Shown: positions 915 through 58,716, numbered from the stretch's first letter. The stretch is DNA of 60,862 nt from Candidatus Woesearchaeota archaeon (GCA_964358765.1 CAYHPN010000002.1:1-60862); one strand, 5' to 3'. Program-made: numbers and translations. The notes: generated by a model from the letters alone, not told the origin.

Positions 915-1739
915 TTACTGCAGTTCAACATAGAAATAATAAGGTGTTGAAGAAGTATCCGTGCCGTGACCATTCTCAAGAACTATCATCTCAAAATCAT
1001 TATCCTGCTGATTAAAGCCGTTTAGTGCACCTTCTTCTAAGATTGATGCAAAGATAACTGAAGAAGAAGTTGGTTCATACAAAAGAGCTTCTTCAAATTG
1101 ATTCGTAGCTTGCCCTCCACCACTATTAAATAATTTAGTGCTGAGACATTCTCCAGCTGAAAATTGTAAATTTGAGGTATAAAATAGATCATGGCCATCC
1201 CCTGCTGGAGTGAAAGAGAAAGTTTCATTTACTCCATCTACATCATCAGATAATATTCCAAATTGGGTCTCCAAAACTGATAAATTTGTTCCGGCTAAAT
1301 TTGTTCCTCCAGCAGAACCGGCTGAACCTGTAGTATTTGCAGTAAAATTAAAACATTGAATATTAGACCAAGAAATTGAAGAATTAGTTGAAGAGTAAAT
1401 TTCTCCTTCTGGTTCTGCTAAAGACCAGTTGTAGATTACGTTGTCCGCGTTGTCTGCAAGTTGAATTGTGCCTGTAACATTACCGAAATAACCCTGCCAT
1501 GTTTGCGTTGTTGAAAAGCCATTAATATTAACTGAGGTAACATTTCCTGCTTGAGCTAAAGCGGAACCGGCTGAATCTGCAGGGGCTGTTTGTGGTGTAC
1601 CTGAAGTGATTGATCCTCCTGTAGGAGAAATTGCCAGAACATTAGATATTAAAAATAAAACTAATAAAGTTGAAACTAAGAAGATAAAATCTAGATTAAG
1701 ATTATTGCATCTTTTTTTACTAATTGATTCTCTTTTTAT
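915..1739 (-). CDS. Secreted module-A protein A1 (274 aa if it starts at ATA 1739; the ORF track truncates it at TTG 1274)
   Basis: The frame is open from 1760 to the stop at 915. It reads IKRESISKKRCNNLNLDFIFLVSTLLVLFLISNVLA-ISPTGGSITSGTPQT...TWQGYFGNVTG...YYFYVELQ, a full-length paralog of 12148 and 20316. No ATG/GTG/TTG lies upstream of the signal peptide. Confidence 0.85.
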   Translation of the reverse strand: MKRESISKKRCNNLNLDFIFLVSTLLVLFLISNVLAISPTGGSITSGTPQTAPADSAGSALAQAGNVTSVNINGFSTTQTWQGYFGNVTGTIQLADNADNVIYNWSLAEPEGEIYSSTNSSISWSNIQCFNFTANTTGSAGSAGGTNLAGTNLSVLETQFGILSDDVDGVNETFSFTPAGDGHDLFYTSNLQFSAGECLSTKLFNSGGGQATNQFEEALLYEPTSSSVIFASILEEGALNGFNQQDNDFEMIVLENGHGTDTSSTPYYFYVELQ

Positions 1740-1790
1740 AATAAAGTAAAGAGAGAAAAACTATTTATAAACATATCTTTTACCGACGGA

Positions 1791-1808
1791 TATTTTCATT
1801 TTTGAAAA
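1791..1808. promoter_or_regulatory. TTTTCA-N4-TGAAAA palindromic operator upstream of A1
   Basis: The 18-mer TATTTTCATTTTTGAAAA is identical to 12065-12082 and lies just upstream of a minus-strand TATA box (TTTATAAAT, about 1763-1771). Confidence 0.6.
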
Positions 1809-1829
1809 AAACTTCTAGATTTGAGATAA

Positions 1830-2708
1830 TTATTTAATACCTTCGAGAATTGACTTTAATTGCGTGATATCTTTAGTTAATGATGAAGATTTATTTATTT
1901 CATGAAGGGCGTCAATATATTTCTGAACCTTACTTACCAACTTATCCATTTCGTTTTTATCTACTAAACCTGAAATTTTAATTTTAAGAAAATCTACATC
2001 TTTTGTATTTTGATCTAATGAAACTTTTGTTTCTTTAATACTATCGCTGAACATGTCTATATCTTGAAATTTTCTTCTTAATTCTGCATAAATTGTATTG
2101 ACCTTGTCAGTATCTATATGGACATTTGCTTCCACTCTTTTAATTTCAATTAATTCTTTTTTAACCTCTTCTGCTAACTTTATTATTTCGTCTATGCCTC
2201 TGAAGAAATCTAATTTTTTCCTCATTTCTTTTAATTCCTCCATTACTCTGGATTGGATTGCTTCGTTTCCCTCTAGATTTGCTTTTAATGCTTCAAATTT
2301 GGCATCTTCTTTCTGCATTTCAATCATTAATTTATCAGGCTGAACGCTTTCAACAAGATCTGCTGCCTTTACAGCTTTAAGTTCTATTTCCTGAATTGTC
2401 CTATCTCTATCTAGAATCATCGCCCTGAGTTCACCAATCTGCTGATTCATTGTTGCGATTCTTTCATTTAATGCTTTTCTTACTTCTCCAAAAGATTCAA
2501 TGGATGCTTTCATTCTATCCAATTCTGTGGAAAGTTTTATTAGGTCAGAACTTGCATTTGCAGATAAGGCTATAGGTTGGGCTTCTGGAGCAGTCTTTTT
2601 CTCATTACCATCGTCACTAGCATTTTCACCTCCTGTAGGCATTTCTTCTGTTTTCTCTTTTTTTTTAAATCCGAACATTTTCAATCTCTTTAAAAAATTG
2701 CTAAGCAT
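1830..2708 (-). CDS. Cytoplasmic long coiled-coil protein with N-terminal amphipathic/basic segment
   Basis: MLSNFLKRLKMFGFKKK, then an acidic linker and about 230 aa of heptad-like sequence. It is the last gene of the ATPase-1 operon. Confidence 0.75.
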   Translation of the reverse strand: MLSNFLKRLKMFGFKKKEKTEEMPTGGENASDDGNEKKTAPEAQPIALSANASSDLIKLSTELDRMKASIESFGEVRKALNERIATMNQQIGELRAMILDRDRTIQEIELKAVKAADLVESVQPDKLMIEMQKEDAKFEALKANLEGNEAIQSRVMEELKEMRKKLDFFRGIDEIIKLAEEVKKELIEIKRVEANVHIDTDKVNTIYAELRRKFQDIDMFSDSIKETKVSLDQNTKDVDFLKIKISGLVDKNEMDKLVSKVQKYIDALHEINKSSSLTKDITQLKSILEGIK

Positions 2709-2735: not shown

Positions 2736-3110
2736 TTAAATGTTTAACAACTTTATAAAGTTAATTCGGATAACATTTTCTAACTCTTTTTTTATATTTT
2801 GGATAAGAATTGAAAGTTTATAAAAGTCACTAGAGTTATAATCAACTGCAAAATGTTTAATTTTTGAAGGAACTAAAATTAGATCATTCTTGATGAAAAA
2901 TAAATCATTCTTTTTATTTTCTAAATTTTTAATTTTTATATTTAAATCATGAAATTCGTTTTTAAAATAAGAAATTAATGAAAATTTTAATGCATGAACT
3001 TGTTCTTCTTGGGGTATTGATTTAATTTTCTTTAGAGTTTCTTTTTTTATGATTTTTTTTGCCATTTTCATTAAAGATCTTAGTTCCTTTTTTTGTATTT
3101 TATCTTTCAT
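2736..3110 (-). CDS. Small helical ATPase-partner protein P1
   Basis: ATGA overlap with ATPase 1. It aligns with 58042..58716 (LKxxL..DLxxxI..KK.DL..PxKI..DxYK). Confidence 0.75.
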   Translation of the reverse strand: MKDKIQKKELRSLMKMAKKIIKKETLKKIKSIPQEEQVHALKFSLISYFKNEFHDLNIKIKNLENKKNDLFFIKNDLILVPSKIKHFAVDYNSSDFYKLSILIQNIKKELENVIRINFIKLLNI

Positions 3111-5302
3111 TTTTTCTTTTTGGTATGAGTTTTAGCAGTCTGTTTCTTATCTTTCTTTGTCTCCTCTTTTTTAATTTCTTCTTTTATGTCTTGCTTTACT
3201 TCTTCCTTTTTTACTTCCTCTTTTTTGACAATATTGTTTTCTTCTTTTTTTACCTCTTTATTCTCCTGTTTCTCTGTTTCTTCTCTTGATTTTTGAGCTT
3301 GTTTTAAGGATGATTCTACAACTGAAGTGTCTACTAACTCAAGTTCTCTTTTCTTAGGTTTTTTCCCCAAACTTTGCCAGTGTTTTTCAACTCTCGGTTT
3401 TAGACCTTCAAGATATATATCAACAACGGTAAAATTGCCAGTCATTAATTTATCTTTTACGAGTTTTAATTCCATTTTTATATCGAAGGTATCTATTTTT
3501 TCTTGTTCAAGTTGTTCAATTTGATATTCTATATCTTCTATGTCATCATTATATTTATTGTATTGATCTAAAACCTGATCTGAAAGTCTTCTAGTATTAT
3601 GCAAAATTGGCCTATAATTAATAAAATAGGGTTTTCCTTTATTATATCTTGGATTTACAAACATTCCTACGCCAACTGAAGCTTTGATTAAGGATTGAAG
3701 AAATTCCTCGCCATATTTTGTTTTAATTCTGTTCAAGTCTGCTTCATCCCTTGTCCTCATTTGAACTTCTGTATTAATATTTGCTTTAATTTCTCCAACA
3801 AAATCAGAAAGAACTTGAGAGACTAACATGACGCCAAAACCCCATTTTCTAAATTCTCTGCATGCTCTTTCTATTTGCAAAAATCCTTTACCGCTTCCTC
3901 CAAATTTAGGCAGTAATCTATGAACTTCATCAAATACCAACATTACTCTAAGGCCGGGAAACTCTTTTGGATCAGATTTAAATATGTTTGCAATAACAGT
4001 TGCAACAAAAGTATCAATTTGAGGAGGAGTGAGTTTGTTCATAGTAAAAATTTGAATTTGGCCCGGATTGAAATATTTTTTTATATCTATTGCCTGCCTT
4101 TCGTTAATGATTTGCCTTACGTTACCTGGAAAGGCTTTAGCATCTGATGGTTTAAGATTAAATTTTGGATAGAAAGATAACATTTTTTTATCCTCGCATT
4201 TTCTTAACATTCCAGACCACTGGGCTGTTGGATCAAAAACTATTACTGCGATATTCTTTAATAAGACTTCTTCAATGAGTGTTTGGGCTGTAATGCTTTT
4301 TCCTCCTCCTGTTGCTCCTGCAACTACTGCGTGGGTTGTTAGAGCATCCATTTCTAAATATGCTGGAATATTTGTTTCTGCAACTTTACCTAAAAGAAGA
4401 GTATTATCGCTTTTTTTTGGAAGAGTTTTTGTATAGAGCTGCATTTTATATTTTTTACTTTTCTCAATTTGTTTTCTAATTATCATAAAAGACAGAATTC
4501 CTAAAAGAAGAATAGAAAATAATATTAAAATAAGCCAAAGTGGAAGAAAACCAAATAACCTAATCTGCCAAAATGGGGTTTTTAATAGAATTTCGTTGCT
4601 TGTAATGATTTGTGCATCTTTGTAATTGGTTATAACCTCTAATACGTAATAATCCTCTTTTAATTTATCTGGGACATTAATCTCTTTAGTCAATTGGAGT
4701 GAACCTTTTACATCCAGAGATTCATTACCTAAGGCAATTGAAGTATTTTTATTTAAATTATTTAAAAAATATGAAAATGTAACATTTGGAATTAATTGAC
4801 TTCCAACTATTTTATCCAGTTTTATTTTAAATACGATTTTTCCATTTAATGAAAATTTTTTTCTTGGTAAGGATACATCAACTAAAATATCTGGATTTAA
4901 TGACTCGTTAGTTATTGTTACGTTAATATCTATTTTTTCTGTAATGTCTCCTGTGATATCTATATAACCTTGAAAAGATCCCAGCTCTCTTCCGGTAATC
5001 GTAAAATAGACGATTGAAAGATTATTTGGCTCGATTATTGATCCAGTGGACTCAACATTAATTATCTTTTTTATTGATTCTATTGAAGAAAAAGAGACTT
5101 TTACTTGTTTATCAAGGTAATTGTAAATAGTGAAAGAATCTGTAAAAATGTTTCCTAAAGAGATCTCTCTTTTTACGTAACTTCTTGATACTTCATAATT
5201 ATTATTTTTTATAGGCGGGCCGTATGCTGAATCAGCGGATATAATAGGAATTAAAATTAAAATTAAAAATATTATATTGCTAATTAATAAATTTTTTTTC
5301 AT
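3107..5302 (-). CDS. Membrane-spanning HerA/FtsK-family (DUF87-like) ATPase 1 with two extracellular Ig-like domains
   Basis: Signal peptide, beta-rich ectodomain, TM (LPLWLILILFSILLLGILSFMII), Walker A HAVVAGATGGGKS, IVFDPTAQW, Walker B LVFDEVH, REFRKWGFGVMLVSQ, helical region and K/E-rich tail. Confidence 0.9.
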   Translation of the reverse strand: MKKNLLISNIIFLILILIPIISADSAYGPPIKNNNYEVSRSYVKREISLGNIFTDSFTIYNYLDKQVKVSFSSIESIKKIINVESTGSIIEPNNLSIVYFTITGRELGSFQGYIDITGDITEKIDINVTITNESLNPDILVDVSLPRKKFSLNGKIVFKIKLDKIVGSQLIPNVTFSYFLNNLNKNTSIALGNESLDVKGSLQLTKEINVPDKLKEDYYVLEVITNYKDAQIITSNEILLKTPFWQIRLFGFLPLWLILILFSILLLGILSFMIIRKQIEKSKKYKMQLYTKTLPKKSDNTLLLGKVAETNIPAYLEMDALTTHAVVAGATGGGKSITAQTLIEEVLLKNIAVIVFDPTAQWSGMLRKCEDKKMLSFYPKFNLKPSDAKAFPGNVRQIINERQAIDIKKYFNPGQIQIFTMNKLTPPQIDTFVATVIANIFKSDPKEFPGLRVMLVFDEVHRLLPKFGGSGKGFLQIERACREFRKWGFGVMLVSQVLSDFVGEIKANINTEVQMRTRDEADLNRIKTKYGEEFLQSLIKASVGVGMFVNPRYNKGKPYFINYRPILHNTRRLSDQVLDQYNKYNDDIEDIEYQIEQLEQEKIDTFDIKMELKLVKDKLMTGNFTVVDIYLEGLKPRVEKHWQSLGKKPKKRELELVDTSVVESSLKQAQKSREETEKQENKEVKKEENNIVKKEEVKKEEVKQDIKEEIKKEETKKDKKQTAKTHTKKKK

Positions 5303-7443
5303 TTTTTCTTTTTTGTCTTTATTTTTTTGCTTTGTTTTAATTGTGTTTTAACCTTATTTAATTTAGGTTTATCTGAATTCATTTTTTTGTTTAGTTCGCC
5401 TTTAGCTTCATTAATGTTTTCGACTTTTTTAATTTCTATAGCAGGAATATCATTACTTTTAATTTCAATTTTTGCTTCTTGGAGCGTTTTATTTACTTGC
5501 TGAACATCTTTATTTTCAACTTGATTCTGCGGAGCAGGCCTAGGAGCAACTTCCTCACTTGGTTTTTTAATTTCTACACTAGTCGAATCTTTAACAATTT
5601 CTTGAGAAATTTCTTTTTTATCGCTTTCTTTATTTTCAGCTTGTTTTATATCTATTTGTTCTGCTTTTTTTAATAACTTTAAGTCTATTGTTTCTGATAA
5701 TTTTTTCATTTCAGATATTAAATTCGTTTTATTTTCAAGAATTGTTTTTGAAACTGGCTCCCCATAAATTGCTTTAATTCTAACATAAATATCAATTGCT
5801 TCATCATGCTTTCCTTCTTTAATTAATTTGTTGAGTTGAGTAATCATCATGTATAAGTTAAGCAGTCTCAGCCTCTCTTTATTCTTGTGATGTTTAGCCA
5901 TTAATAAGGCCAAAATAATTGAGGCAAATATTATAAGCATAAATAAAAAATTAGCTTTAATGAATGAAGCTACGTTAAACCCTTCTCCAATTTTAAACGA
6001 ATCCGAATCTAATGCAACTTTTTCTCCAGAAACTGCCCTTGCTATAAAAAGATATTCGCCTTTTTTTGTTCCTAGAGGAATTTCTAATTCTTTATCTAAA
6101 AATTTTATTCTTTCAGAGAAGATAAATTCCTCTGTCTTGGAATTTATGACGTTTCCATAATAGTCTACTACAGAATAATAAAAAGAGAGGTTATTCTCAT
6201 TTAGATCTTTTAGATTTTCTAAAGTAATATTTGCTTTTACAATCTTGCCTGGCTTAACACTTTTATATTCTTTAGAAATATCTACGTTCAAAGTTAATTC
6301 TGCTTCCAATGCTTTGAGAATTATAACAATAGGAACTTCCTTAACCCCTGCCTTTGTTATTATTTTTACGGTGCCATAATAGATCCCAGGAGGAGTAAGT
6401 TTATCTGCAGAAATTTCTATCGTAACTGATTTTGAATCTCCCCCAGACAAATTAAAATTTTCATCACTGATTGTTTTTTTGAATTCATCCAAACCTGATA
6501 ATTCTATTTTGAAATCTAAAGGAACATTTCCAATATTTGTTACTTTGATAGTTACTACTCCTGTTGCTCCTTGTGTTAAGTCGATATTGAAGCCAGCTGC
6601 TGGATCAATTGTAAAATTAAAACTTTCCGAAACTCCTCTTCTTAAGATATTTCCAATGATGCTATCTGAACTGCTTGATGAATCACTACTAGAATCTGAA
6701 GAACCGGTGCCAGTACCGGTGCCTGTTCCTGGAGTAGTAGGGGTAGCGTTCACAGTGAAATTTTGAATATCTGTAACATTCATCTGACCAAAAACATCGT
6801 ATGCATAAAACTTCCAGTAAACGACAGTGCCGCCAGCTGCACTGATTTGTAAAGTATAATTAGATTTATTTACATTTCCTGAAAATGAAAGATTTGAGTA
6901 ATTTGTGAATCCAGCCCCCTCATTTATTGAAAATATATAATGACTTAGACCTCCAGTATCCGTCCAATCCGTATAGAATTTTACAATTGTATTCTGAAAT
7001 ACCGTGGTTTTGTCTTTAGTGGGATTACTCCAGGTTGGAGGTGAAGTATCGTTTACTACGAATAAATAGACTAAGTTGCTTGAATTTGTGAAAAAAGAAT
7101 TTGTAGCGTTAAAAGTTACAGTCTTAGTACCTTCAAAATTGTAATCAGGATAGAAGGAGACACTATGAGTTATTGGATCTATAGAAATTGTTATATTTTC
7201 AACGCTTGAAGCATTGTAAGTTAAACTATCTAAATCGTAAAAATAACTATCTAGATCAAAAGAATTTGTGAGATTTGTGTTTTTTGAAATAGTTTGATTT
7301 GGTATATTTGAAATAAGTTGAGGAGTTGTTAAATTACCCGGAGATATATTTAGATATGTTGGAACTTCTGCAATAGCAAGGTTATTATTTAATACAAAAA
7401 CTAAAGTTATAACTATTAACAATAAACTTCCTCTCTTTTTCAT
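5299..7443 (-). CDS. Membrane-anchored Ig/cadherin-like surface protein with cytoplasmic helical tail
   Basis: Signal peptide, cadherin-like domain (FDLDSYFYD), G/T/S linker, two Ig domains resembling the ATPase ectodomain, TM and a Lys-rich tail. ATGA overlap with ATPase 1. Confidence 0.85.
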   Translation of the reverse strand: MKKRGSLLLIVITLVFVLNNNLAIAEVPTYLNISPGNLTTPQLISNIPNQTISKNTNLTNSFDLDSYFYDLDSLTYNASSVENITISIDPITHSVSFYPDYNFEGTKTVTFNATNSFFTNSSNLVYLFVVNDTSPPTWSNPTKDKTTVFQNTIVKFYTDWTDTGGLSHYIFSINEGAGFTNYSNLSFSGNVNKSNYTLQISAAGGTVVYWKFYAYDVFGQMNVTDIQNFTVNATPTTPGTGTGTGTGSSDSSSDSSSSSDSIIGNILRRGVSESFNFTIDPAAGFNIDLTQGATGVVTIKVTNIGNVPLDFKIELSGLDEFKKTISDENFNLSGGDSKSVTIEISADKLTPPGIYYGTVKIITKAGVKEVPIVIILKALEAELTLNVDISKEYKSVKPGKIVKANITLENLKDLNENNLSFYYSVVDYYGNVINSKTEEFIFSERIKFLDKELEIPLGTKKGEYLFIARAVSGEKVALDSDSFKIGEGFNVASFIKANFLFMLIIFASIILALLMAKHHKNKERLRLLNLYMMITQLNKLIKEGKHDEAIDIYVRIKAIYGEPVSKTILENKTNLISEMKKLSETIDLKLLKKAEQIDIKQAENKESDKKEISQEIVKDSTSVEIKKPSEEVAPRPAPQNQVENKDVQQVNKTLQEAKIEIKSNDIPAIEIKKVENINEAKGELNKKMNSDKPKLNKVKTQLKQSKKIKTKKKK

Positions 7444-11410: not shown

Positions 11411-11941
11411 TTAGCTTCTTTCCCAGATTACTTTCTTACTTATATCGAAAAGTCCGAGATTTTGCAGATCCTGGTATTGCTTTTCAGGCATTTCTACATA
11501 TTGAATTCTGAAATTGTGCTTATTTTTGATCTCATCTATTAATCGGTTAAGTTTCTCCTTGGAAATTGAGTCTCCAACAATTAAGATCTTTGCACTATTG
11601 CTTGTTTTGGTTTCTAATATAATTTTCTTAACTTTAAGGTTTGATTTTACACGATCTATAAATTCTGAAAGATGATCTTCTTTTTTAAGTATTTTTGAGA
11701 GATATATTGTCTTCTCACTTTGTTTTTGTTTATAAAATTTAGATTTTCCTATTAAAGTTATCTCTATTATCTCGTTTTTTACCAACTTATCAAGCACCCT
11801 AAGAGTTGTAGTGATATTTACGCGGGATTCTTCAGAAACTTCGCTTAAGGAGAACTTCCGCTCAGAGTTTGAAAGGAACAAATCTATAATAGATATTATT
11901 TTTTCATCAAATATTTTTCTTAAAACCTCGATTTCATCCAT
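11411..11941 (-). CDS. Winged-HTH transcriptional regulator with a C-terminal degenerate nucleotidyltransferase-like domain (start ATG 11941 preferred over 11989)
   Basis: FSLSEVSEESRVNITTTLRVLDKLVKNEII...GKSKFY. It is divergent from the A2-A4-B1 operon. Confidence 0.8.
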   Translation of the reverse strand: MDEIEVLRKIFDEKIISIIDLFLSNSERKFSLSEVSEESRVNITTTLRVLDKLVKNEIIEITLIGKSKFYKQKQSEKTIYLSKILKKEDHLSEFIDRVKSNLKVKKIILETKTSNSAKILIVGDSISKEKLNRLIDEIKNKHNFRIQYVEMPEKQYQDLQNLGLFDISKKVIWERS

Positions 11942-12062
11942 AAGACCATTTAATAGAAATGCCTTTATAAACATTTCATTTGAAAACAAATTACTTGCTT
12001 AAATATTAAAATTATATTCGATAATTATATTTTTTTATGAAAACAAAAAATCATTTTTAATA

Positions 12063-12100
12063 TATATTTTCATTTTTGAAAATATAGAAAGGTTTATAAA
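12063..12100 (+). promoter_or_regulatory. Perfect 10-4-10 inverted repeat followed by BRE/TATA
   Basis: TATATTTTCA-TTTT-TGAAAATATA (12063-12086), then GAAAGG TTTATAAA (12087-12100), upstream of ATG 12148. Confidence 0.7.
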
Positions 12101-49459: not shown

Positions 49460-51412
49460 ATGAGAAATACGAAAGGAGGAAAGATACTTACTTGGAAGTT
49501 TATAATTATATCAATAATGATGTTTATTTTTTCTTTTTATCTAATTTACGCACAATTAATTCCAGGATTACATACAATTCAAGGTTATATTTTTAATAAT
49601 GGAGGAAGTCAAGCACCCGCAGGAACAAAAGTCTGGATAAATGCAACTACAACGGGAAGTTTTACTTCATTATTAACCTCCGGACCGCCTGGAAACACTG
49701 GATTTTATTCTTCTTCAATAAATGCGAGTGATGGAGAAAGTATAATTGTTACTGTATTTAATGCTACTGCATATGGGAGAAATTCAACTTTATTATTAAA
49801 CTCTCCTTTATCTACTAGATTTAATTTGACTATGAATAATACTAGACCTGGAGAAACAGATATTAATATTACTTCTCCATCTAATGGTGCATCCTTTGGA
49901 CAGTATGTAGTTTTTAATGTTAATTTTAGTATTACTGCTATTGGGGGGGAGAATAGTGTAAATTGTAATGTTACAATAAATATTTCTGATGAGAATATAA
50001 TGAATATTACAACTCTAGAAAATAAAACTAAACAATTGGGAAATATTAACTTAGGAAATTCTTTAGGGGGATATTTCAATATTCAGGCAAAAAACCAGGG
50101 ATCTAGTTATATAACTTTGACAAGTGTCTGTTCAAGTGATGGAATTAATTTTGAAAACTTGAAGAGTGAAACAATTGGCGTAAGTGTATCTGCTCAACCG
50201 CCTCAAATGCATACCATACAAGGATATATTCTAAATATAAATAATGTTACTCAAGTTCCGACTGGGACAAATGTTACTATAAATGCTACGACTAGTGGAA
50301 GTTACATGTCAGTCTTGACTTCTGGGCCTCCTGGACAGACTGGATTTTATTCTACTACTATAAACGCAATTGATGGAGAACAATTTATTGTTCATGCACA
50401 GAATGGAACGTATGAAGGGACAAAGACCATAAATGCAGTAAATAGTCCAGGCACTACAAGAGTTAATGTAACACTAGATACTAAGATTATTCCAGATTTA
50501 TTTATTAATTTTAGCGACATTTTGTTTTATGGAAACTTAATAGAGAATGTAAACATAACTGTAAATGCTACTATAAAAAACATTGGAAGGGCAGATGTCG
50601 GTAATTTCACAGTTCAGTTTTTTAAAGAAGATCCAGATTTTGGAGGAACTTTGATACAAGGAAATTTGACAATAAACAATCTTTCAAAAGGACAATCTGC
50701 AACCTTATCCGTAAACTATACAACAACAATAGGAAATAACAATATTTTTGTTCTTGTGGATGTTCCTTTTTCCGTGAATGGAAGTTATTCTGAATCAAAT
50801 GAAACAAACAATAAGGCAAATAATACTTTGAATATTACTGCATGGCAGACTATTTATGGAAATATTTCTATTGACAAATTGATAGGAGATAACTCAACTA
50901 GGAATATAAGTATATGGTATGATGAACAGAGTTTCTCTGGAAATGTCTTTATCAGTGATACTGAAAATACAATAAACTGGAAATCTTTGCTGGCAATTGG
51001 CAATAACCTAAGTGGAACTAATACAACAAATGATTATTCAGATTTAGATGCCTTATTCAATATGACTATTTTTAGAGATTCTGTATCAAATAAATTTACA
51101 ACTGATGGAAATCATCCAAGAGGCTTGACAAGCATCCTTGCATATCAGAGGAATATAACTAATATCTCGGTTATAAATTCTACAAATACCTCTAACTTTT
51201 TAACCGGCATATTATGGGATAGCTCTGATGATGCAGCAGATGGAGAATTCAGTCAGGATGATAAGGAAGACGTAGTATTTTTTACAAATGTAAACAAAGG
51301 TATGCAGGGAGCGTATGGAACTTATGATTATGAGATAAGCATCCCAGTAAGATTAAGGGAATATAGAAATAATGATGTACAAAATGTTTTTATTTATTTT
51401 GATATCAATTAA
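49460..51412 (+). CDS. Secreted protein with a GPPG-repeat head, CARDB and module-A-like tail
   Basis: The first ~340 aa are paralogous to 18433..20301. The last ~300 aa are paralogous to the G2 C-terminus (ESNETNN, AWQTIYGN, YDYEISIPVRLREY). Confidence 0.9.
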   Translation: MRNTKGGKILTWKFIIISIMMFIFSFYLIYAQLIPGLHTIQGYIFNNGGSQAPAGTKVWINATTTGSFTSLLTSGPPGNTGFYSSSINASDGESIIVTVFNATAYGRNSTLLLNSPLSTRFNLTMNNTRPGETDINITSPSNGASFGQYVVFNVNFSITAIGGENSVNCNVTINISDENIMNITTLENKTKQLGNINLGNSLGGYFNIQAKNQGSSYITLTSVCSSDGINFENLKSETIGVSVSAQPPQMHTIQGYILNINNVTQVPTGTNVTINATTSGSYMSVLTSGPPGQTGFYSTTINAIDGEQFIVHAQNGTYEGTKTINAVNSPGTTRVNVTLDTKIIPDLFINFSDILFYGNLIENVNITVNATIKNIGRADVGNFTVQFFKEDPDFGGTLIQGNLTINNLSKGQSATLSVNYTTTIGNNNIFVLVDVPFSVNGSYSESNETNNKANNTLNITAWQTIYGNISIDKLIGDNSTRNISIWYDEQSFSGNVFISDTENTINWKSLLAIGNNLSGTNTTNDYSDLDALFNMTIFRDSVSNKFTTDGNHPRGLTSILAYQRNITNISVINSTNTSNFLTGILWDSSDDAADGEFSQDDKEDVVFFTNVNKGMQGAYGTYDYEISIPVRLREYRNNDVQNVFIYFDIN

Positions 51413-52617: not shown

Positions 52618-53262
52618 TTATTTTTTATTCTTAGTTTTAGAACCGGATAAACTTTCTTTGCTTAGTGAATTCTTGTACAAAGAAATAAATTCGGAAAGAG
52701 AATCCTTAAGCTCTTTTTCTTCTTTGCGAATATCTTCTTCTTTTGCTATTAAGTTAAAATAAATTTGCTGCCATTCCTTTTCTAGATTATGTAGTTTACC
52801 TGTTTGATCCAATAATTTATTTTTTAATTCTCCACTAACGTTTTTTAATAATAATTCTGGCTGCTGCTTTTGCCAATATTCTCTCATTTGAAAAACCATA
52901 TCTCCAGGAGCGAATTTATTTTTATACCATGAATCTAATTTTGAAGCATCCTGCTTCTCTTCCGTTACGCTTTTAATCAGCTCTTTAAAATAGCCCTGTT
53001 CTTCATAAAAAGGCTGATTTATTGAATTTTGTGCAGCATTCTGAGAAGAAGAAGCAGAAGTACTAGAAGTAGAATTTGAATTTTGTGCTGATTGTGAGGA
53101 AGGACTAGCTTGATTTTGTGAATTTAGATTAAGGTCTTGTTTTATTTTTGTTTGATCAGAAGAAATATTAAGGCTAGCGGATGCTATATTCTTATTTATT
53201 TCTTCTATGGCTAAACTTGGAAGTTCAGCTGGAACCTCTTTTTTTTTGAATAAAAACCCCAT
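52618..53262 (-). CDS. Cytoplasmic coiled-coil protein with MGFLFKKK start and S/Q/N-rich linker
   Basis: Low-complexity linker and C-terminal heptads. Confidence 0.7.
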   Translation of the reverse strand: MGFLFKKKEVPAELPSLAIEEINKNIASASLNISSDQTKIKQDLNLNSQNQASPSSQSAQNSNSTSSTSASSSQNAAQNSINQPFYEEQGYFKELIKSVTEEKQDASKLDSWYKNKFAPGDMVFQMREYWQKQQPELLLKNVSGELKNKLLDQTGKLHNLEKEWQQIYFNLIAKEEDIRKEEKELKDSLSEFISLYKNSLSKESLSGSKTKNKK

Positions 53263-54340: not shown

Positions 54341-57300
54341 ATGAAATATAATAATGAAAAGCTTATTGTTAGAATAAGAAGAGAAGAACTTTATAAAGAG
54401 AGAAGAGAAAATAAAATATATAATCTTTTAATTGGTTTCTTTATAATTACTTTGCTCATAGTAATATCTTTAACTATTTTTAATTGGTCTAAAATTACAG
54501 GATATGTTAATTCCATCTCAAGCCAGGCAGGATATATTACAAGCGTTACTATATACTCTAAGACAAATACAACCATATGGGGAGGACTTTATGGACTAGC
54601 ATTACGAGTACCTGGATTTACACAACAGTTATTTGAGGATCTAAATTCAGGAACAGTAGAAAGAACTGACGTATTTTTTGATTGCCTAAAAACTGATGCA
54701 CAGGGAGGCCCTGAAATCTATGTTTCTACCAATCCTTCTTTAGTCATCTCAGCCGGGACTGTGGCTGCAGGAAGTGTAAGTACGGTAGATTCTTATATTG
54801 GTTGCAGTGGAGAAATTTATTGTGCAAACAACACATATACAAACAATATGACCATTTATGTAGGTTCCACACAAATAACTGGCATTCCTTCTACACATAC
54901 TTATAAGTTTAATGCATCAAATAATATTTTTGACATAGGAGTTTTAAATATTTCTGGAAGTTTAGCATTTGTTTCGCATGTAAATGCTTCTATACAAAAA
55001 GGATTTAATCCAAACGCATTAGTAAATTATCAAATGCTTTTACCCACGCCTGCAAATACTACTGTTAATTATTATTTTTATTCAGACCCAAATGATGTTT
55101 GCCCATCAGGAGGAATTGGAAGCACAATTGATTCTACAGTTTCCGGATATACAAAAGACTCGAATGGAAATATCTTGGGGGATGTTAGTGTCACTTTCGT
55201 AGGCAATACTACGACATCCAACAGCACTACTGGTTTTTATAATATAAGCTACTCGGTTTTAGAAGGAACTTTTAATTTAATTGGCCAAAAAAGCGGATAT
55301 GATACTAATATCTCAAATGTTATTATAAACTCCAGCGATTATATAGTCTATAAAAATATTAGCCTGAAATCTTCAATAGTCGCAACTGAGAATAATAGTG
55401 CAATTATTATAGTTAGAGGAATAGTTAAAGATACTGGAGGAACAACAATTTCTGGAGCTAATATCTCTGCAGGAGATTCTTCTACTTTAACAAACAGCTC
55501 TGGACAATATTATTTTTCACCATTGTTAGTCAGAGGAACTCAACCAATAATATCTGTTAAAGCAGATTATGATAATTACGTCGGATTTCTCACTGTTAAT
55601 TCAACAACATCAATAATAGATTATAACATTACTATGGAACCTGCAAATCTAAATCAATATTTGAATCCTCCTACCGAAGCTGCAGGAGTTGATGCAGCTG
55701 GAACAAAAACAGAAGATGAAACTTCTCAGGCTAGGACAGAAGCAGAAAAAGCAGGACAAGATTTCTGGATCAGCGCTGCAGAGATAAATAAACAAATAAG
55801 AGAAAATACATTTGTAGAAGAGAAAATAAGTATTTACAATTTTAAAAGTGGAGGAATGAATATTGTATTTTCAATTATTGGAGAGCAAATTGAAGACATT
55901 ATTAAAATTGATAAAAGCGCTTTATCCATTGGATCAAATACATTTGACAGCGTGATACTCACCATATATGGAACTAAGCAAATTGGAACTTATAAAGGCA
56001 AATTAAAAATAACCGGAGATTTGGATGTTGAAGTACCAGTAAATATTGAAATTGTCCCTAAAAGACTCCCAGTAGAAACTTTAGTTATGGAAATTGAACT
56101 ATTTGAGGATAGCGTTAATATTGGAGATGATTTGAAATACAGATTAAATTTGCAAAATTTGTTAACTGACCAAGGATATAAAGTAAAGCTCAAACATTTA
56201 ATTTATGAATATGGTGATTCAAATAAATCCCAGATAATTGCTGAAGAAAACGAAGAAGTTGAAATAAAGAACTCTTTGAGTTTGATTAAAGAATTTGATA
56301 TTAAAAATGTCAGCGATGGCAAGTATTTAGTTAGTATTGAAGCAGAATATTTAGGACTATATTCTAATGTAGCCTCTCCATTTGAAATTACAAGACCAAT
56401 TTATCTTTATTCTTTTTTTGGAATACCTTTGTGGATTATTTTTATTATTATTTCTGCATTCTCATTTATTTTATTGAATTTATTTATTTATAAAAGACAA
56501 GCAGAAAAGAAAAAAAGATACCATCTTGCGCTTAGGCTGGATACTTTGCCTAAACCGGGCGAGAGATCTATAAAACTTGGAAAAATTGCAGAGAAAAATA
56601 TCGATGCCTTTTATAATATGGATGACTTAACAACTCACGCAATAGTTGCAGGAGCTACAGGAGGAGGAAAAAGTATTGCGGCACAAGTGTTTGTAGAAGA
56701 AATGCTCTTAAAGGGAATAGCCGTAATAGTGTTTGATCCAACCGCACAGTGGTCTGGAATGCTTAGAAAATGTGATGATAAAAGAATGATGTCCTTTTAT
56801 CCAAAATTTGGATTAAAACCGTCTGATGCAAAAGCATTCCCTGGAAATGTAAGGCAAATTACTAATTATTTAGAATCTTTAGATATAAATAAATATGTTA
56901 ATCCTGGCCAGATCCAAGTATTTACTATGAATAAAATGGAACCTAAACAGATAGATATATTTGTTGCTGGAGTTATATCAAATATTTTTAAATCTGATCC
57001 TAAAGAATTTCCTGGTTTAAGAGTTATATTAGTATTTGATGAAGTTCATAGATTGCTGCCAAAGTTTGGAGGAAGCGGTAAAGGATTTTTGCAAATAGAA
57101 AGGGCGTGTAGAGAATTTAGAAAGTGGGGATTAGGAGTAATGCTAGTATCTCAGGTTTTGTCTGACTTTGTTGGAGAAATTAAAGCAAACATAAACACTG
57201 AATGCCTAATGAGGGCTGCGGAAGAAAAAGACCTGGAAAGAATTAAAGAGAGATATGGACTTGATGCGTTGAAATCATTAGTAAGAGCAGATGTTGGAAC

Positions 57301-58045
57301 AGCTATGCTTCAGAATGCGGAATACAATAAAGGACTTCCATATTTTGTAAACTTAAGGCCCATATTGCATAACACTAGAAGGTTAAGTGATGAAGTTTTG
57401 GATAAATACAACCAGTATAATGATACGATTGATGATTTAGATTATCAAATACAACAATTAGAACAAGAAAAAATAGATATTTTTGACTTGAAAATGGAAC
57501 TAAAACTTGTAAAAGATAAATTGATGACTGGCAATTTCACCGTAGTTGACATATATCTAGAAGGATTAAAACCAAGAGTGGAGAAAAACTGGCAGACAAT
57601 TGGAAAACAACCAAAAAAAAGAGAATTAAAATTAATTGATGTTGCTGAACTCGAAAGCGCATTAGCAAAAGCTAATGCTGAAAAACTAAAATGGCAAGCA
57701 CAGAATGCAAAGACAGAAGAAGCAAAACAAGAAAAAGCCATTGACAAAGGAGCTATAATCGTTAAGCCGATTACTTTTGATAATGGATTGATGGTTTCTT
57801 CATTAAATGAATTGAAAGATGTTATGCCTACATTTGATGATTCTGTATTTAAAATTCATGTAAATGATAACAAGAATGATATTGCAGATTGGATTGGAAA
57901 AGAAATTGATGCAGATCTAGGGAAGAAAGTTAAAGATGTTAAGACTAAACAGGAGATTATGGCAATTATTCAAAACTTTGGAAAAGAAGTTAAAGCTGAA
58001 GAGGTAAAGAAAGATGAGGTGAAAAAGGAGGAGGTGAAGAAATGA
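54341..58045 (+). CDS. Membrane-spanning HerA/FtsK-family ATPase 2: module-A domain, two carboxypeptidase-regulatory-like domains, two Ig domains, TM, ATPase, DUF5752-like domain
   Basis: GATGGGKS, LVFDEVH, REFRKWGLGVMLVSQ. The ATPase core is highly similar to 3107..5302; the C-terminus has FDNG..SLNEL..FKIHVNDNKNDIADW. Confidence 0.9.
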   Translation: MKYNNEKLIVRIRREELYKERRENKIYNLLIGFFIITLLIVISLTIFNWSKITGYVNSISSQAGYITSVTIYSKTNTTIWGGLYGLALRVPGFTQQLFEDLNSGTVERTDVFFDCLKTDAQGGPEIYVSTNPSLVISAGTVAAGSVSTVDSYIGCSGEIYCANNTYTNNMTIYVGSTQITGIPSTHTYKFNASNNIFDIGVLNISGSLAFVSHVNASIQKGFNPNALVNYQMLLPTPANTTVNYYFYSDPNDVCPSGGIGSTIDSTVSGYTKDSNGNILGDVSVTFVGNTTTSNSTTGFYNISYSVLEGTFNLIGQKSGYDTNISNVIINSSDYIVYKNISLKSSIVATENNSAIIIVRGIVKDTGGTTISGANISAGDSSTLTNSSGQYYFSPLLVRGTQPIISVKADYDNYVGFLTVNSTTSIIDYNITMEPANLNQYLNPPTEAAGVDAAGTKTEDETSQARTEAEKAGQDFWISAAEINKQIRENTFVEEKISIYNFKSGGMNIVFSIIGEQIEDIIKIDKSALSIGSNTFDSVILTIYGTKQIGTYKGKLKITGDLDVEVPVNIEIVPKRLPVETLVMEIELFEDSVNIGDDLKYRLNLQNLLTDQGYKVKLKHLIYEYGDSNKSQIIAEENEEVEIKNSLSLIKEFDIKNVSDGKYLVSIEAEYLGLYSNVASPFEITRPIYLYSFFGIPLWIIFIIISAFSFILLNLFIYKRQAEKKKRYHLALRLDTLPKPGERSIKLGKIAEKNIDAFYNMDDLTTHAIVAGATGGGKSIAAQVFVEEMLLKGIAVIVFDPTAQWSGMLRKCDDKRMMSFYPKFGLKPSDAKAFPGNVRQITNYLESLDINKYVNPGQIQVFTMNKMEPKQIDIFVAGVISNIFKSDPKEFPGLRVILVFDEVHRLLPKFGGSGKGFLQIERACREFRKWGLGVMLVSQVLSDFVGEIKANINTECLMRAAEEKDLERIKERYGLDALKSLVRADVGTAMLQNAEYNKGLPYFVNLRPILHNTRRLSDEVLDKYNQYNDTIDDLDYQIQQLEQEKIDIFDLKMELKLVKDKLMTGNFTVVDIYLEGLKPRVEKNWQTIGKQPKKRELKLIDVAELESALAKANAEKLKWQAQNAKTEEAKQEKAIDKGAIIVKPITFDNGLMVSSLNELKDVMPTFDDSVFKIHVNDNKNDIADWIGKEIDADLGKKVKDVKTKQEIMAIIQNFGKEVKAEEVKKDEVKKEEVKK

Positions 58046-58716
58046 AAAAGAAAAAAGAAATTAAGCCAATTAAGAAGAAAAAAATAAAAAATTCAAAGAA
58101 AAGCACTATAAAACCTAAAACTTCAGATAATAAAGTTGAAAATAAAGCAGATGTTAAAATTGAAGAAAAGAAAATTGAGATAAAAAACGAAATTAGAATT
58201 GATGCCAAATTAAGCCTGGATGAGGAAAAGATAAAAGAATTTTTAGATATTGGGCATTTATACGAATTATTATATTTAATAAGCATATTAAAAAACGAGG
58301 AAATAAAGAATTTTATAGAACACTATAAACAGAATGCTATAAAATCTAGAGATGATAAGATTGACAGACTGATAAGGAATTCTAAAAGCGAAAAAGATTT
58401 AATCTTAAATTTAAAAAAAGAGTTAACTAATACATTAAACGAAGATTATATAGATTTAAGAAAGGAAATAAGTATTGAAAGAAAAAAGGGCGTGGATCTT
58501 TATATAGAAGATATTACTTCAATGTCTATTCCTCTTAAAATTAGAATGTATTCTGCAACTATGAAAAAAGAAGATTATTATAAAATTAAAAAAATTTTTG
58601 AAGATGTGAGAAATAGCATAAAATTAAAAAAAGAGATATTTGAAAAAGAAAAAGTTGAAAAAGATAGATTTTTCTGGGCAATGAAGAATAGAGATATGAA
58701 GAATTCTGGCAATTAA
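58042..58716 (+). CDS. Helical ATPase-partner protein P2
   Basis: ATGA overlap with ATPase 2. The C-terminal half aligns with 2736..3110. Confidence 0.75.
   Translation: MKKKKEIKPIKKKKIKNSKKSTIKPKTSDNKVENKADVKIEEKKIEIKNEIRIDAKLSLDEEKIKEFLDIGHLYELLYLISILKNEEIKNFIEHYKQNAIKSRDDKIDRLIRNSKSEKDLILNLKKELTNTLNEDYIDLRKEISIERKKGVDLYIEDITSMSIPLKIRMYSATMKKEDYYKIKKIFEDVRNSIKLKKEIFEKEKVEKDRFFWAMKNRDMKNSGN

What the first reader, a model, noticed from the sequence alone, without database searches (positions are those of the whole stretch)
915..58716. Candidate undescribed archaeal surface-fibre system: one module-A domain used as free subunit, as tail of adhesins and as ectodomain of a transmembrane HerA ATPase
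Seen: the domain 'WxGxxG...GEIYxxxN...GF...D/NF/YxMxxP/L...YYFxxE/D' occurs seven times. Four are small secreted proteins (915, 12148, 12967, 20316), two are at the extreme C-terminus of large cargo proteins (31803-32384 in the 3991-aa giant; 50840-51412), and one is at the N-terminus of ATPase 2 (54521-55087). The locus also has a DUF916/PapD-like Ig membrane protein, several TM anchors and a shared upstream palindrome. Established: donor-strand fibres (chaperone-usher pili, TasA-like archaeal bundling pili) use small beta-sandwich subunits, and chaperone-usher tip adhesins carry the pilin domain C-terminally without an N-terminal extension; membrane-bound HerA/VirB4-like ATPases (e.g. CedB) drive archaeal DNA transfer. 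Inference: A1-A4 are shaft subunits, G2 and 49460 are tip adhesins, and ATPase 2 is a base subunit linking the fibre to a cytoplasmic motor, perhaps for host attachment or macromolecule uptake by a DPANN symbiont. I know of no described system with this architecture.
Basis: partly seen in the sequence, partly recalled or inferred. Interest (0 to 1): 0.92.

Follow-up and report, generated by a model that had tools for sequence, protein, structure and literature searches.

The report
Archaeal surface module tied to ATPase
A previously undescribed protein domain of small symbiotic (DPANN) archaea occurs as free secreted subunits, as the tail of giant surface proteins and on a membrane-bound motor ATPase, which points to a new kind of cell-surface attachment apparatus that has so far only been inferred by computation.

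Summary
The seven-fold domain is real. A profile of 73 diverse free "A" proteins hits exactly the seven predicted places among 206 window ORFs. Profile-profile comparisons link free A, the ATPase-2 N-domain and the cargo tails (E 1e-13, 8e-9, 3e-10). The domain has no Pfam family. Its confident model (pLDDT 92) matches no solved fold.

In 401 genomes of the phylum, A occurs in 105, the tail in 89 (86 shared) and the transmembrane HerA ATPase in 78. Of 45 genomes with the "long" ATPase, 41 have A.

Two operons are conserved. One is cargo-with-tail, a DUF5752-like cytoplasmic protein, A, A' and B. The other is a large membrane protein, HerA and a coiled-coil protein.

A three-copy prediction passes its controls (0.63 against 0.00). 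The N-terminal arm of one subunit lies between the first and last strands of the next. The tails lack that arm.

The fibre reading is therefore partly supported. The fold is not pilin-like, the DUF916/PapD label failed, and the ATPase's role as fibre base is inference. No literature search found the system described.

The parts
918..1760 (-). A1, a free A-module protein. The open frame is 281 aa and has no canonical in-frame start before codon 163.
   Evidence: A4 profile E 9.3e-87. Start region read. One N-terminal hydrophobic segment.
1793..1808 (.). 16-nt palindrome TTTTCATTTTTGAAAA upstream of A1
   Evidence: One of two exact copies in the window.
1830..2708 (-). Coiled-coil cytoplasmic protein (CC), a conserved partner of the TM-HerA ATPase
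   Evidence: A homologue lies downstream of the long HerA in 19 of 20 loci and next to 2 of 3 giant HerA genes. No TM segment.
3107..5302 (-). ATPase 1, the short TM-HerA form: signal/TM segment, Ig-like ectodomain, TM segment, HerA/FtsK-type ATPase
   Evidence: Pfam DUF87 48 bits (cut-off 23.2), plus HerA_C and FtsK_SpoIIIE. TM segments at 20-38 and 272-290 of the frame.
5299..7443 (-). Single-pass surface protein (signal peptide, ectodomain, TM segment, Lys-rich cytoplasmic tail) directly upstream of ATPase 1
   Evidence: Weak Ig-like Pfam hits only.
8274..11366 (+). 1030-aa membrane protein (P1030): N-terminal TM segment, large ectodomain, C-terminal TM segment and cytoplasmic tail
   Evidence: Homologues in 15 of 20 long-HerA loci, in nearly all of them directly upstream of and co-directional with HerA.
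11411..11989 (-). Winged-helix regulator, divergent from A2
   Evidence: Weak wHTH Pfam hits.
12067..12082 (.). Second copy of the palindrome, upstream of A2
12148..12951 (+). A2, a free A-module protein (267 aa; signal peptide, about 44-aa arm, domain)
   Evidence: 741 homologues. AF2 model pLDDT 92. Self-association prediction.
12967..13767 (+). A3, a divergent free A paralogue (30% identical to A2)
   Evidence: It is hit by the tail profile (3.9e-9) and the ATPase-N profile (8.8e-12).
13770..14765 (+). B, a free two-domain Ig-like protein and the last gene of the conserved cassette
   Evidence: Present in 13 of 20 A cassettes. Unrelated to A (hhalign probability 0.2). The Atlas structure resembles CARDB/Ig-like proteins.
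18307..20301 (+). Cargo protein with a C-terminal B module (about nt 19432-20298)
20316..21107 (-). A4, a free A-module protein
21109..21729 (-). Winged-helix regulator upstream of A4
   Evidence: Pfam wHTH hits. Homologues sit between A genes in 6 of 20 cassettes.
31803..43778 (-). G2, a 3991-aa secreted giant protein. Its last ~200 aa (nt 31812-32405) are an arm-less A module.
   Evidence: A4 profile E 3.8e-7 and tail profile E 4e-84. One N-terminal hydrophobic segment only. Big_13 repeats.
49460..51412 (+). T, a 650-aa secreted cargo protein (CarboxypepD_reg-like repeats and CARDB). Its end (nt 50822-51409) is an arm-less A module.
52618..53262 (-). Cytoplasmic protein weakly like the middle part of the cassette's M protein
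   Evidence: phmmer E 1.1e-5 to one M-like ORF. Weak.
54341..58045 (+). ATPase 2, the long TM-HerA form. Parts: TM1 at nt 54425-54481; A-like domain at 54506-55081; CarboxypepD_reg and Ig-like ectodomains; TM2 at 56432-56488; ATPase core at 56477-57496; DUF5752-like domain at 57773-57979.
58042..58716 (+). Small coiled-coil protein downstream of ATPase 2
   Evidence: homologues in 2 of 20 loci.

Best explanation
The A module is a roughly 200-residue extracellular, beta-rich domain with no recognisable relatives, and it serves as a self-associating building block.

Proposed mechanism:
- Free A proteins carry a signal peptide, a ~44-residue N-terminal arm holding the conserved A-x-A-G-N-(I/V)-T stretch, and the domain. 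They are exported and join head to tail: the arm of one subunit lies along the first strand (T-W-Q-G-Y-F-G) and beside the last strand (Y-Y-F) of the next. This is a donor-strand-like or arm-exchange polymer.
- Large secreted cargo proteins (G2, T) end in an A module without the arm. They can accept an arm but cannot donate one, so they would sit at one end of the polymer as caps that display adhesive domains.
- The long transmembrane HerA ATPase carries an A-like domain, arm-strand included, directly after its first membrane helix. It would tie the assembly to the membrane.
- On the cytoplasmic side, the ATPase C-terminus shares a DUF5752-like domain with a protein (M) encoded in the A cassette.

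What is shown: homology of the three forms, absence of the arm from the tails, topology from hydropathy, co-occurrence and linkage, and the two conserved operons.
What is predicted: self-association through the arm.
What is inferred: that the assembly is a fibre rather than a short chain, the cap and base roles, and any work done by the ATPase.
For: (1) Homology of the three forms. hhalign gives E 1e-13, 8.3e-9 and 3.2e-10. The diverse free-A HMM hits exactly the 7 sites among 206 ORFs. Tail and ATPase-N profiles hit free A proteins in most of the 20 cassette loci at 1e-5 to 1e-17 and in G311 and G039.

(2) Polarity. The free-A against ATPase-N alignment starts at the A-x-A-G-N arm (column 60). 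The free-A against tail alignment starts only at T-Q-x-W-Q-G-Y (column 79). The tail ends the protein in 29 of 30 loci, or 28 of 29 without L071 from an unpublished genome.

(3) Self-association. Three copies of mature A2 with a 73-row alignment gave a median score of 0.63 against a best control of 0.00. The mark was reached by 20 of 30 proteins solved as pairs of one chain and by 1 of 23 solved as single chains. The runs agree in at least 46% of contacts and the partner pLDDT is at least 72. These counts hold only roughly here, because my own alignment and three copies were used. The confident contacts are arm residues 24-33 of one copy with residues 44-50, 219-222 and 233-235 of the next. 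No similar solved complex exists that the model could have recalled.

(4) Cassette. In 20 loci from 20 genomes, chosen around A genes, tail-bearing ORFs of 500 to over 4300 aa are present in 18, tandem A paralogues in 20 (by construction), B in 13 and M in 12.

(5) Link to the ATPase.
- 41 of 45 genomes with a long HerA have A, against 4 of 16 with only giant forms and 105 of 401 overall.
- 47 of 53 genomes with close A homologues (best E <= 1e-40, a post hoc cut) have the ATPase. By hand count, that is 25 of 28 taxonomic families.
- A and HerA lie on the same contig in at least 23 genomes (coordinates).
- The A-like N-domain is present in all 21 long forms examined.
- The DUF5752-like domain of M sits at the C-terminus of 19 of 21 long HerAs.

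(6) Fusion logic. In 3 of 3 giant forms examined, a 3300-4900-aa ectodomain lies between TM1 and TM2 of the same ATPase, and there is no A, tail or ATPase-N match. Genomes with such forms only mostly lack A.

(7) Surface features. A, B, T, G1 and G2 carry 3-7 N-x-S/T sequons per 100 residues and a single N-terminal hydrophobic segment.
Against: - The confident monomer model is a closed fold in which the arm has pLDDT 83-87 but almost no regular strand. The arm may therefore simply pack in cis.
- In the three-copy prediction only one of the two possible head-to-tail contacts is confident; copy 1 touches with 4 residues. A regular filament was not obtained.
- The fold matches no pilin, cannula or TasA-like structure.
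- The arm is on average less conserved than the rest of the protein (1.95 against 2.25 bits).
- 49 of the 105 genomes with any A match lack the ATPase at E <= 1e-20. The ATPase therefore cannot be an obligatory base for all A-like proteins.
- If both the tails and the ATPase copy were acceptor-only, a simple linear chain could not hold both ends. The ATPase copy keeps the arm-strand but has almost no linker to TM1.
- Related genomes are not independent, so the co-occurrence counts overstate the support.
- There are no expression, protein or imaging data.
Confidence: 0.4

Rival explanations
1. The A module is a docking or anchoring module rather than a polymer. The arm-less tail on secreted cargo binds the A-like domain of the membrane ATPase, or another surface component, one to one. 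This holds giant adhesins on a cell that lacks other anchors. Free A proteins act as adaptors, spacers or competitors.
For: - Cargo proteins have no C-terminal membrane segment and end in the module.
- In giant HerA forms the ectodomain is covalently attached instead, and A is mostly absent.
- Only one confident subunit contact appeared.
- The monomer model is closed.
Against: - It does not explain 2 to 10 free paralogues per genome in tandem arrays.
- It does not explain why free A keeps an arm that the tails lack.
- 6 of 53 genomes with close A homologues, and 43 of 52 with divergent ones, have no ATPase to dock on.
Confidence: 0.25
2. Free A proteins form a two-dimensional surface layer (S-layer-like lattice) by arm exchange. 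Tails co-assemble cargo into the lattice, and the ATPase A-like domain pins the lattice to the membrane.
For: - The proteins are secreted and rich in glycosylation sequons.
- Self-association is predicted.
- There are several paralogues per genome.
Against: - The distribution is patchy: 105 of 401 genomes, and 1 of 27 other genomes in the window's own family.
- The cassette is organised like an adhesin operon, with regulators in it.
- No lattice geometry was predicted.
Confidence: 0.15
3. There is no physical assembly. The window is a fast-evolving island of surface-protein genes in which domains are shuffled freely, and the shared module reflects recombination rather than interaction. The ATPase has an unrelated job, such as DNA or protein translocation.
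For: - There is much modular shuffling. T and the 18307 protein share N-terminal repeats but carry different tails (A or B).
- A also occurs fused behind other domains, including ones with an S59 autopeptidase H-F-S motif.
- The distribution is patchy.
Against: - Gene order is conserved across at least 13 of 20 genomes from many families.
- The long ATPase and A go together in 41 of 45 genomes.
- A second shared domain lies on the cytoplasmic side.
- The self-association prediction passes its controls.
Confidence: 0.1
4. The locus is a virus-derived or mobile element. The HerA/FtsK ATPase would be a packaging or transfer motor and A a capsid-like protein.
For: - HerA/FtsK ATPases are common in archaeal mobile elements (passages of PMC4158269).
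- The top Foldseek rows are polyomavirus VP1 jelly rolls, but at E > 0.3 and TM about 0.1, so they are not significant.
Against: - No integrase or other viral hallmark gene was seen in the Pfam scans of the window.
- The ATPase has a large extracellular domain between two membrane helices.
- A proteins carry signal peptides.
- The genes include giant glycoprotein-like ORFs.
Confidence: 0.03

Closest known systems
Archaeal donor-strand filaments: Sulfolobus threads (Saci_0406), Pyrodictium cannulae (CanA/CanX) and TasA-like bundling pili
   Same: - Small secreted glycoproteins with Sec-type signal peptides are proposed to polymerise without an outer-membrane usher.
- In cannulae, the N-terminal strand A docks into a groove between the first strand (B) and the last strand (K) of the neighbour (passages of PMC12518558). 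The predicted A2 contact likewise puts the arm between the first and last strands.
- Threads have a paralogous putative cap encoded next to the subunit gene (PMC9715654 abstract and section 13).
   Different: - There is no sequence or fold match to any of them.
- The A fold is not a recognisable jelly roll or Ig fold.
- A homologous domain sits in a membrane ATPase, which the passages and abstracts I read do not mention for these systems.
Bacterial chaperone-usher pili (recalled knowledge, plus statements in PMC13278184 and PMC9715654)
   Same: - The operon logic is similar: adhesin, major subunit and minor subunits.
- Two-domain tip adhesins carry the subunit-type domain at the C-terminus and lack the donor extension.
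- Polymerisation is polar, by strand donation.
   Different: - No PapD-like chaperone or usher was detected.
- There is no outer membrane.
- The subunit fold is different.
- An ATPase is associated, whereas chaperone-usher assembly needs none.
Pam pili of Candidate Phyla Radiation bacteria (PMC13278184; abstract and passages read)
   Same: - They are thin filaments of ultra-small episymbionts, built by donor-strand exchange.
- The operon encodes a tip subunit and membrane-anchored assembly and anchor proteins.
- No trans-envelope machine is involved.
   Different: - Pam pilins are Ig-like, and that paper reports them as exclusive to CPR bacteria.
- Pam chaperones are PapD-like with a C-terminal TM helix.
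- 'ATPase' occurs 0 times in that text.
Membrane-anchored HerA/FtsK-superfamily translocases: Ced system ATPases, VirD4/TrwB-type coupling proteins, FtsK/SpoIIIE, TraB
   Same: - P-loop ATPase of the HerA/FtsK superfamily (Pfam DUF87, HerA_C, FtsK_SpoIIIE, TrwB_AAD_bind).
- Solved relatives are HerA helicases.
- Two membrane helices precede the cytoplasmic ATPase, as in coupling proteins (recalled).
   Different: - The segment between the two helices is an ectodomain of 230 to over 4500 residues.
- Family scores are far below the cut-offs: CedD 40 against 600, TraD 22 against 366.
- No other T4SS or Ced component was seen in the scans.
WxL / Csc cell-surface clusters of Firmicutes (recalled; lead only)
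   Same: These are clusters in which small proteins and large proteins share one C-terminal surface-binding domain, next to a membrane-anchored DUF916 protein. The architectural logic is the same as A/tail and B/B-tail here.
   Different: - The only signal is an Atlas feature score of 0.75 for B, which is below the tool's level of trust.
- Pfam WxL and DUF916 do not match.
- The hosts are archaea without peptidoglycan.

Membership tests
HerA/FtsK superfamily of P-loop ATPases | Pfam DUF87/HerA central domain above the gathering score; Walker A and B motifs | tested here: met
   DUF87 scores 48.2 bits (cut-off 23.2) for ATPase 1 and 37.2 for ATPase 2. HerA_C scores 34.9 and 34.3 (cut-off 22). 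G-A-T-G-G-G-K-S and hydrophobic-D-E motifs are visible in the translations. The best solved relatives are HerA proteins.
Ced DNA-import system ATPases (CedB/CedD) | NCBIfam equivalog score above the cut-off | tested here: not met
   CedD NF053655 scores 30.6 and 40.4 bits against a cut-off of 600.
Type IV coupling proteins (TraD/VirD4/TrwB) | Family model above the cut-off | tested here: not met
   TIGR03743 scores 22 bits against 366. Pfam TrwB_AAD_bind scores 16.6 against 20.5.
Chaperone-usher pilins | Incomplete Ig-like fold resembling solved pilins | tested here: inconclusive
Chaperone-usher pilins | PapD-like chaperone and usher encoded in the operon | tested here: not met
   No PapD, usher or DUF916 Pfam match in the 20 window proteins scanned. 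The 15050 protein gives CARDB only.
Donor-strand / arm-exchange polymers in general (a mechanism, not a family) | An N-terminal extension of one subunit completes or extends a sheet of the next | tested here: inconclusive
   The prediction passes its controls (0.63 against 0.00), with the arm on the neighbour's first and last strands. Only one of the two contacts is confident, and the monomer model is closed. There are no experimental data.
TasA-like / camelysin (Peptidase_M73) bundling pilins | Pfam or PDB sequence match | tested here: not met
   0 Pfam families for A2 and A4 at E <= 0.1. The profile search against PDB sequences gave no relevant hit.
Cannula proteins (CanA-like) | Jelly-roll fold resembling the solved CanA/CanX structures | tested here: inconclusive
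DUF5752 (PF19027) | Pfam score above the gathering score | tested here: met
   This holds for the cassette's M protein: L089 ORF 47.7 bits and L091 ORF 25.0 bits against a cut-off of 23; L082 ORF scores 20.6, just below. The ATPase-2 C-terminus matches the M C-terminal profile (E 1.3e-16) but not Pfam directly.
WxL domain proteins | Pfam WxL match | tested here: not met
   No Pfam match for B or any of its 17 aligned relatives. Atlas feature score 0.75 only.

The most novel reading that the evidence does not exclude
The A polymer is seated on a ring of the transmembrane HerA ATPase and forms, together with it, a cell-to-cell apparatus of a new kind. Giant adhesin caps grip the host. The arm-exchange fibre or tube connects to the A-like domains that surround the ATPase's membrane pore. 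The HerA/FtsK-type motor, coupled in the cytoplasm to the coiled-coil and DUF5752 proteins, moves DNA, protein or other macromolecules between the DPANN cell and its host, or reels the fibre in. Such an apparatus would be unrelated to type IV pili, type IV secretion and the Ced system. The giant forms, with ectodomains of up to about 12,000 residues fused into the same ATPase, would be its single-chain version.
Probability: 0.17. Interest if true: 0.95.

Novelty: new variant of a known kind. Interest (0 to 1): 0.8.

Why it matters
DPANN archaea live attached to other cells and depend on them, yet the molecules that make and use this contact are largely unknown.

What this work adds:
- It defines a protein module with no family and no known fold. 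The module is found in about a quarter of 401 sampled genomes of the phylum.
- It shows the module's three contexts: free subunit, tail of giant surface proteins, and ectodomain of a membrane ATPase.
- It finds two conserved operons and a prediction of arm-mediated self-association.

Together these give concrete, testable candidates for the attachment apparatus: which proteins to express, which arm to delete, and what to look for in tomograms.

The work also brings to light a family of HerA/FtsK ATPases whose extracellular insert ranges from 230 to more than 4500 residues in the three giant forms read through here. Open frames of up to 12,056 residues contain the ATPase domain. If the ATPase does mechanical or transport work on a surface assembly, that would be a new principle for archaeal cell envelopes.

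Tried and rejected
**Narrow profiles.** An HMM of A2-A4 alone and the 42-sequence profile did not detect the fused copies. Only the more diverse profile and the profile-profile comparisons did.

**First structure job.** The full-length protein with the narrow alignment gave pLDDT 58.8 and was set aside.

**Sequence searches.**
- Profile searches of PDB sequences with the A, tail and B alignments found nothing relevant.
- Pfam and NCBIfam give nothing for A, B, P1030 or the small proteins.
- The DUF916/PapD idea for 15050-16279 found no support.
- B is not a distant A (hhalign probability 0.2).

**Free N-terminus idea.** I considered that A needs a free N-terminus, because some longer fusions carry a Nup98-type S59 autopeptidase. 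I rejected this. The H-F-S site lies about 120 residues upstream of the A arm, and the arm sequence is kept internally.

**Interface conservation.** The acceptor side is more conserved than the rest (2.69 against 2.07 bits), but it also contains core strands. The arm is less conserved (1.95 against 2.25). I take this as inconclusive.

**Expression.** No RNA holder is listed. The 4 runs holding the stretch belong to one study of groundwater metagenomes and are kept as DNA contigs.

**Literature.** Searches for a prior description found none. These searches cover only the held open-access library.

**Mobile-element reading.** I considered a viral or mobile origin and ranked it low (see rivals).

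Full report
**Setting.** The window is the first 60,862 bases of a 129-kb contig in a 1.75-Mb, 69-contig genome bin. The bin is 87% complete and 1.6% contaminated, with about 30% G+C. Sources that name homologues call them Nanoarchaeota, Pacearchaeota, Nanobdellota or Woesearchaeota, which are DPANN archaea. The only public runs that hold the stretch are groundwater metagenomes from one study.

**The observation.**
- Three full-length free proteins (A2, A3, A4) are plain ORFs. A1 is a full-length 281-aa open frame at 918-1760 (-), but it has no in-frame ATG, GTG or TTG ahead of its signal-peptide-like segment. An ATG lies one base out of frame just upstream.
- Profiles built only from close free copies did not reach the fused copies.
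- An alignment of 73 free A proteins (23-76% identical to A2), taken from 30 other genomes and the protein database, gave an HMM. At E <= 0.01 it hits exactly seven of the 206 window ORFs. These are the four free copies, the last 200 residues of G2 (3.8e-7), residues 63-254 of the ATPase-2 frame (4.8e-7) and the end of the 49460 protein (1.3e-5).
- I built two independent alignments: the N-terminal 330 residues of 21 long ATPases from 21 genomes, and 30 tails. Both match the free-A alignment by hhalign over essentially the whole domain (E 1e-13 and 8.3e-9). They also match each other (3.2e-10).
- The tail and ATPase-N profiles also hit free A proteins directly, in the window and in other genomes.
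- The seven-fold occurrence is therefore homology, not chance.
- The genome holds three more copies outside the window. One is fused behind a 350-residue N-terminal region.

**What the module is.**
- It has no Pfam or NCBIfam family and no relative among PDB sequences.
- With the diverse alignment and without the signal peptide, AlphaFold2 gives a confident model: pLDDT 92, pTM 0.87. It has about 13 strands and two short helices. The first 44 residues are confident (83-87) but hardly regular.
- The module is thus not a recognisable pilin-type Ig fold. It may be a new fold.
- Conserved positions are mostly G, W, Y, F and a Cys pair, which suggests a structural domain rather than an enzyme.

**The polarity of the three forms.**
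- Free A has a signal peptide, then an arm of about 44 residues, then the domain. The arm has a conserved P-x-G near its start, a Thr/Pro/Gly-rich stretch and a conserved A-x-A-G-N-(I/V)-T-x-L stretch. The domain begins at W-Q-G-Y-F-G-N and ends at the C-terminal Y-Y-F-x-V-E-L.
- The ATPase copy aligns from the A-G-x-I arm-strand onward, and follows the first membrane helix by about 15 residues.
- The tail copies align only from W-Q onward and directly follow a CARDB-like domain.
- The tail is at the extreme C-terminus in 29 of 30 loci. The proteins that carry it range from about 250 to over 7000 residues.
- In the window they have one N-terminal hydrophobic segment and no other membrane segment.

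**Self-association.**
- One complex prediction was allowed. I used it for three copies of mature A2 with the 73-row alignment. After five unanswered attempts it ran.
- It passed: median score 0.63, best of three controls 0.00. The mark was reached by 20 of 30 proteins solved as pairs of one chain and by 1 of 23 solved as single chains.
- The runs agree in at least 46% of contacts and the partner pLDDT is at least 72. The tool warns that its counts hold only roughly for my own alignment and three copies.
- The confident contacts put arm residues 24-33 (D-S-A-F-A-G-N-T-T-F) of one copy along residues 44-50 (T-W-Q-G-Y-F-G) and next to 219-222 and 233-235 (Y-Y-F) of the next copy. That is between the first and last strands.
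- This is topologically what is described for cannulae, where strand A docks between strands B and K (passages of PMC12518558).
- Against it: only one of the two possible head-to-tail contacts was confident. The monomer model keeps the arm on its own domain. The arm is not more conserved than the rest.

**Distribution and linkage.**
- In an even sample of 401 genomes of the phylum, A matches occur in 105 (71 of 280 genera), usually as 2-10 paralogues. The tail occurs in 89. The ATPase domain occurs at E <= 1e-20 in 78.
- Overlaps: A with tail 86; A with ATPase 56; all three 47.
- With close A homologues (best E <= 1e-40, a cut chosen afterwards), 47 of 53 genomes have the ATPase, against 9 of 52 with only divergent A matches.
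- The ATPase comes in three sizes: about 640-950 aa (short), about 1040-1760 aa (long) and 2000-12,056 aa (giant).
- All 21 long forms examined carry the A-like N-domain.
- 41 of 45 genomes with a long form have A, against 4 of 16 with giant but no long forms.
- A and the ATPase lie on one contig in at least 23 genomes, 22 of them within 50 kb (coordinates).
- Related genomes are not independent. By hand count, the close-A set spans 28 families, 25 of them with the ATPase.
- In the window's own family only 1 of 27 other genomes has A. The bin is twice the size of its relatives, so the island may be recently acquired or the bin may be mixed.

**Two conserved operons.**
- Around 20 long ATPase genes, a homologue of the window's 1030-aa membrane protein lies upstream in 15. 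In nearly all of these it is directly upstream and co-directional. A homologue of the coiled-coil protein 1830-2708 lies downstream in 19.
- Around 20 A clusters the order is: one or two tail-bearing large ORFs (18 of 20); then a charged, coiled-coil, evidently cytoplasmic protein M (12 of 20); then two or more A genes; then B (13 of 20). A winged-helix regulator sits between A pairs in 6.
- M ends in a DUF5752-like domain (Pfam E 1.5e-12).
- The same domain forms the C-terminus of 19 of 21 long ATPases, including ATPase 2.
- The long ATPase thus shares one domain with the cassette outside the cell and another inside it.
- B is a separate two-domain Ig-like module that also occurs as a cargo tail (18307-20301). 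It is unrelated to A.

**Fusion logic.**
- Three giant forms were read through. Each is one frame with an N-terminal hydrophobic segment where the frame is complete. An ectodomain of 3300-4900 residues follows, then a membrane helix and the ATPase. None has an A, tail or ATPase-N match. The coiled-coil gene follows in 2 of 3.
- One of them shares repeats with the window's G1 (E 8.9e-27).
- Where the ectodomain is covalently part of the ATPase, A is mostly absent. Where giant proteins are separate and end in an A tail, the ATPase bears an A-like domain.
- This is the pattern expected if A-A contacts replace the covalent link.

**Reading.**
- The best-supported model is an arm-exchange assembly of A subunits. 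Arm-less cargo tails cap it, and the A-like domain of the long ATPase connects it to the membrane.
- I give it 0.4. Only homology, polarity, operons and co-occurrence are shown, and self-association is only predicted.
- The rivals are a one-to-one docking module (0.25), a planar lattice (0.15) and no physical link (0.1).
- The ATPase belongs to the HerA/FtsK superfamily. It is not a member of the Ced or coupling-protein families. What it does is open.

**Comparison and novelty.**
- The mechanism resembles archaeal threads, cannulae and bundling pili, bacterial chaperone-usher pili and the CPR Pam pili.
- My basis for these comparisons: abstract and passages of PMC13278184; abstract and section 13 of PMC9715654; passages of PMC12518558; search listings only for the others.
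- It differs in fold, in using giant cargo tails as caps, and in the homologous domain inside a membrane ATPase.
- Six literature searches found no description of the A family or of ectodomain-bearing HerA ATPases. The library is partial and supplements were closed.
- I rate it a new variant of a known kind (strand- or arm-exchange surface polymers). A categorically new reading, a fibre coupled to a translocase, remains open.

**Limits.** Everything here is computational.

Noticed in passing
window 1640-1840 (-): A1 has a full-length open frame but no in-frame ATG/GTG/TTG before its hydrophobic segment. An ATG sits one base out of frame just upstream. This could be a frameshift, an assembly error or an unusual start.
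   Followed up: partly
G357:C3:5823-6800, G364:C4:34575-35522, G077:C10:175709-176626, G311:C2:303134-304138; L101-L103: The same TM-HerA ATPase domain closes open frames of 2000 to 12,056 residues in other genomes. Three were read through (3954, 5222 and 5479 aa). Each is a single frame with the giant ectodomain between two membrane helices.
   Followed up: partly
P0126, P0127, P0129: Some longer A-module proteins carry a Nup98-type S59 autopeptidase domain with an intact H-F-S-S-Y motif about 120 residues upstream of the A arm. This suggests self-cleaving precursors.
   Followed up: partly
window 57773-57979; L082, L085, L086, L089-L091, L093-L097, L100: A DUF5752-like domain of about 70 residues (H-H-V-N-x-x-[KR]-N-D-F-x-x-W) is shared by the C-terminus of long HerA ATPases and by a cytoplasmic coiled-coil protein encoded between the cargo genes and the A genes.
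   Followed up: yes
window 13770-14765 and 19432-20298: A second module (B; two Ig-like domains with conserved cysteines) also exists both as a free protein and as the C-terminal tail of a cargo protein. That cargo protein's N-terminal repeats resemble those of T.
   Followed up: partly
window 5299-7443, 8274-11366, 16281-18350 (C-terminal ~100 residues): By eye, the cytoplasmic tails of three single-pass surface proteins share a helical pattern of spaced Y/I/L and K/R residues after the membrane helix. I did not test this.
   Followed up: no
whole genome G000: The bin is 1.75 Mb, whereas 27 genomes of the same family are 0.5-0.9 Mb. The same-genus genome G250 has the ATPase and a tail but no A match. 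The island may be recently acquired, or the bin may hold two organisms.
   Followed up: no
window 44493-47002: A HAD-like hydrolase ORF is followed by a 639-aa ORF that begins like a protein kinase and continues with a long C-terminal region. They lie between G2 and T. I read them by eye from the translations only and did not scan them.
   Followed up: no
G000:C18:27902-29686: A 595-aa frame outside the window has a TM/signal segment, an Asn/Gly-rich low-complexity stretch, a domain of about 130 residues and then a complete A module including its arm.
   Followed up: partly
P0104: One close A homologue is labelled Leptospiraceae bacterium by its source, on a 1151-base contig. This is probably a binning error rather than a bacterial copy.
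   Followed up: no
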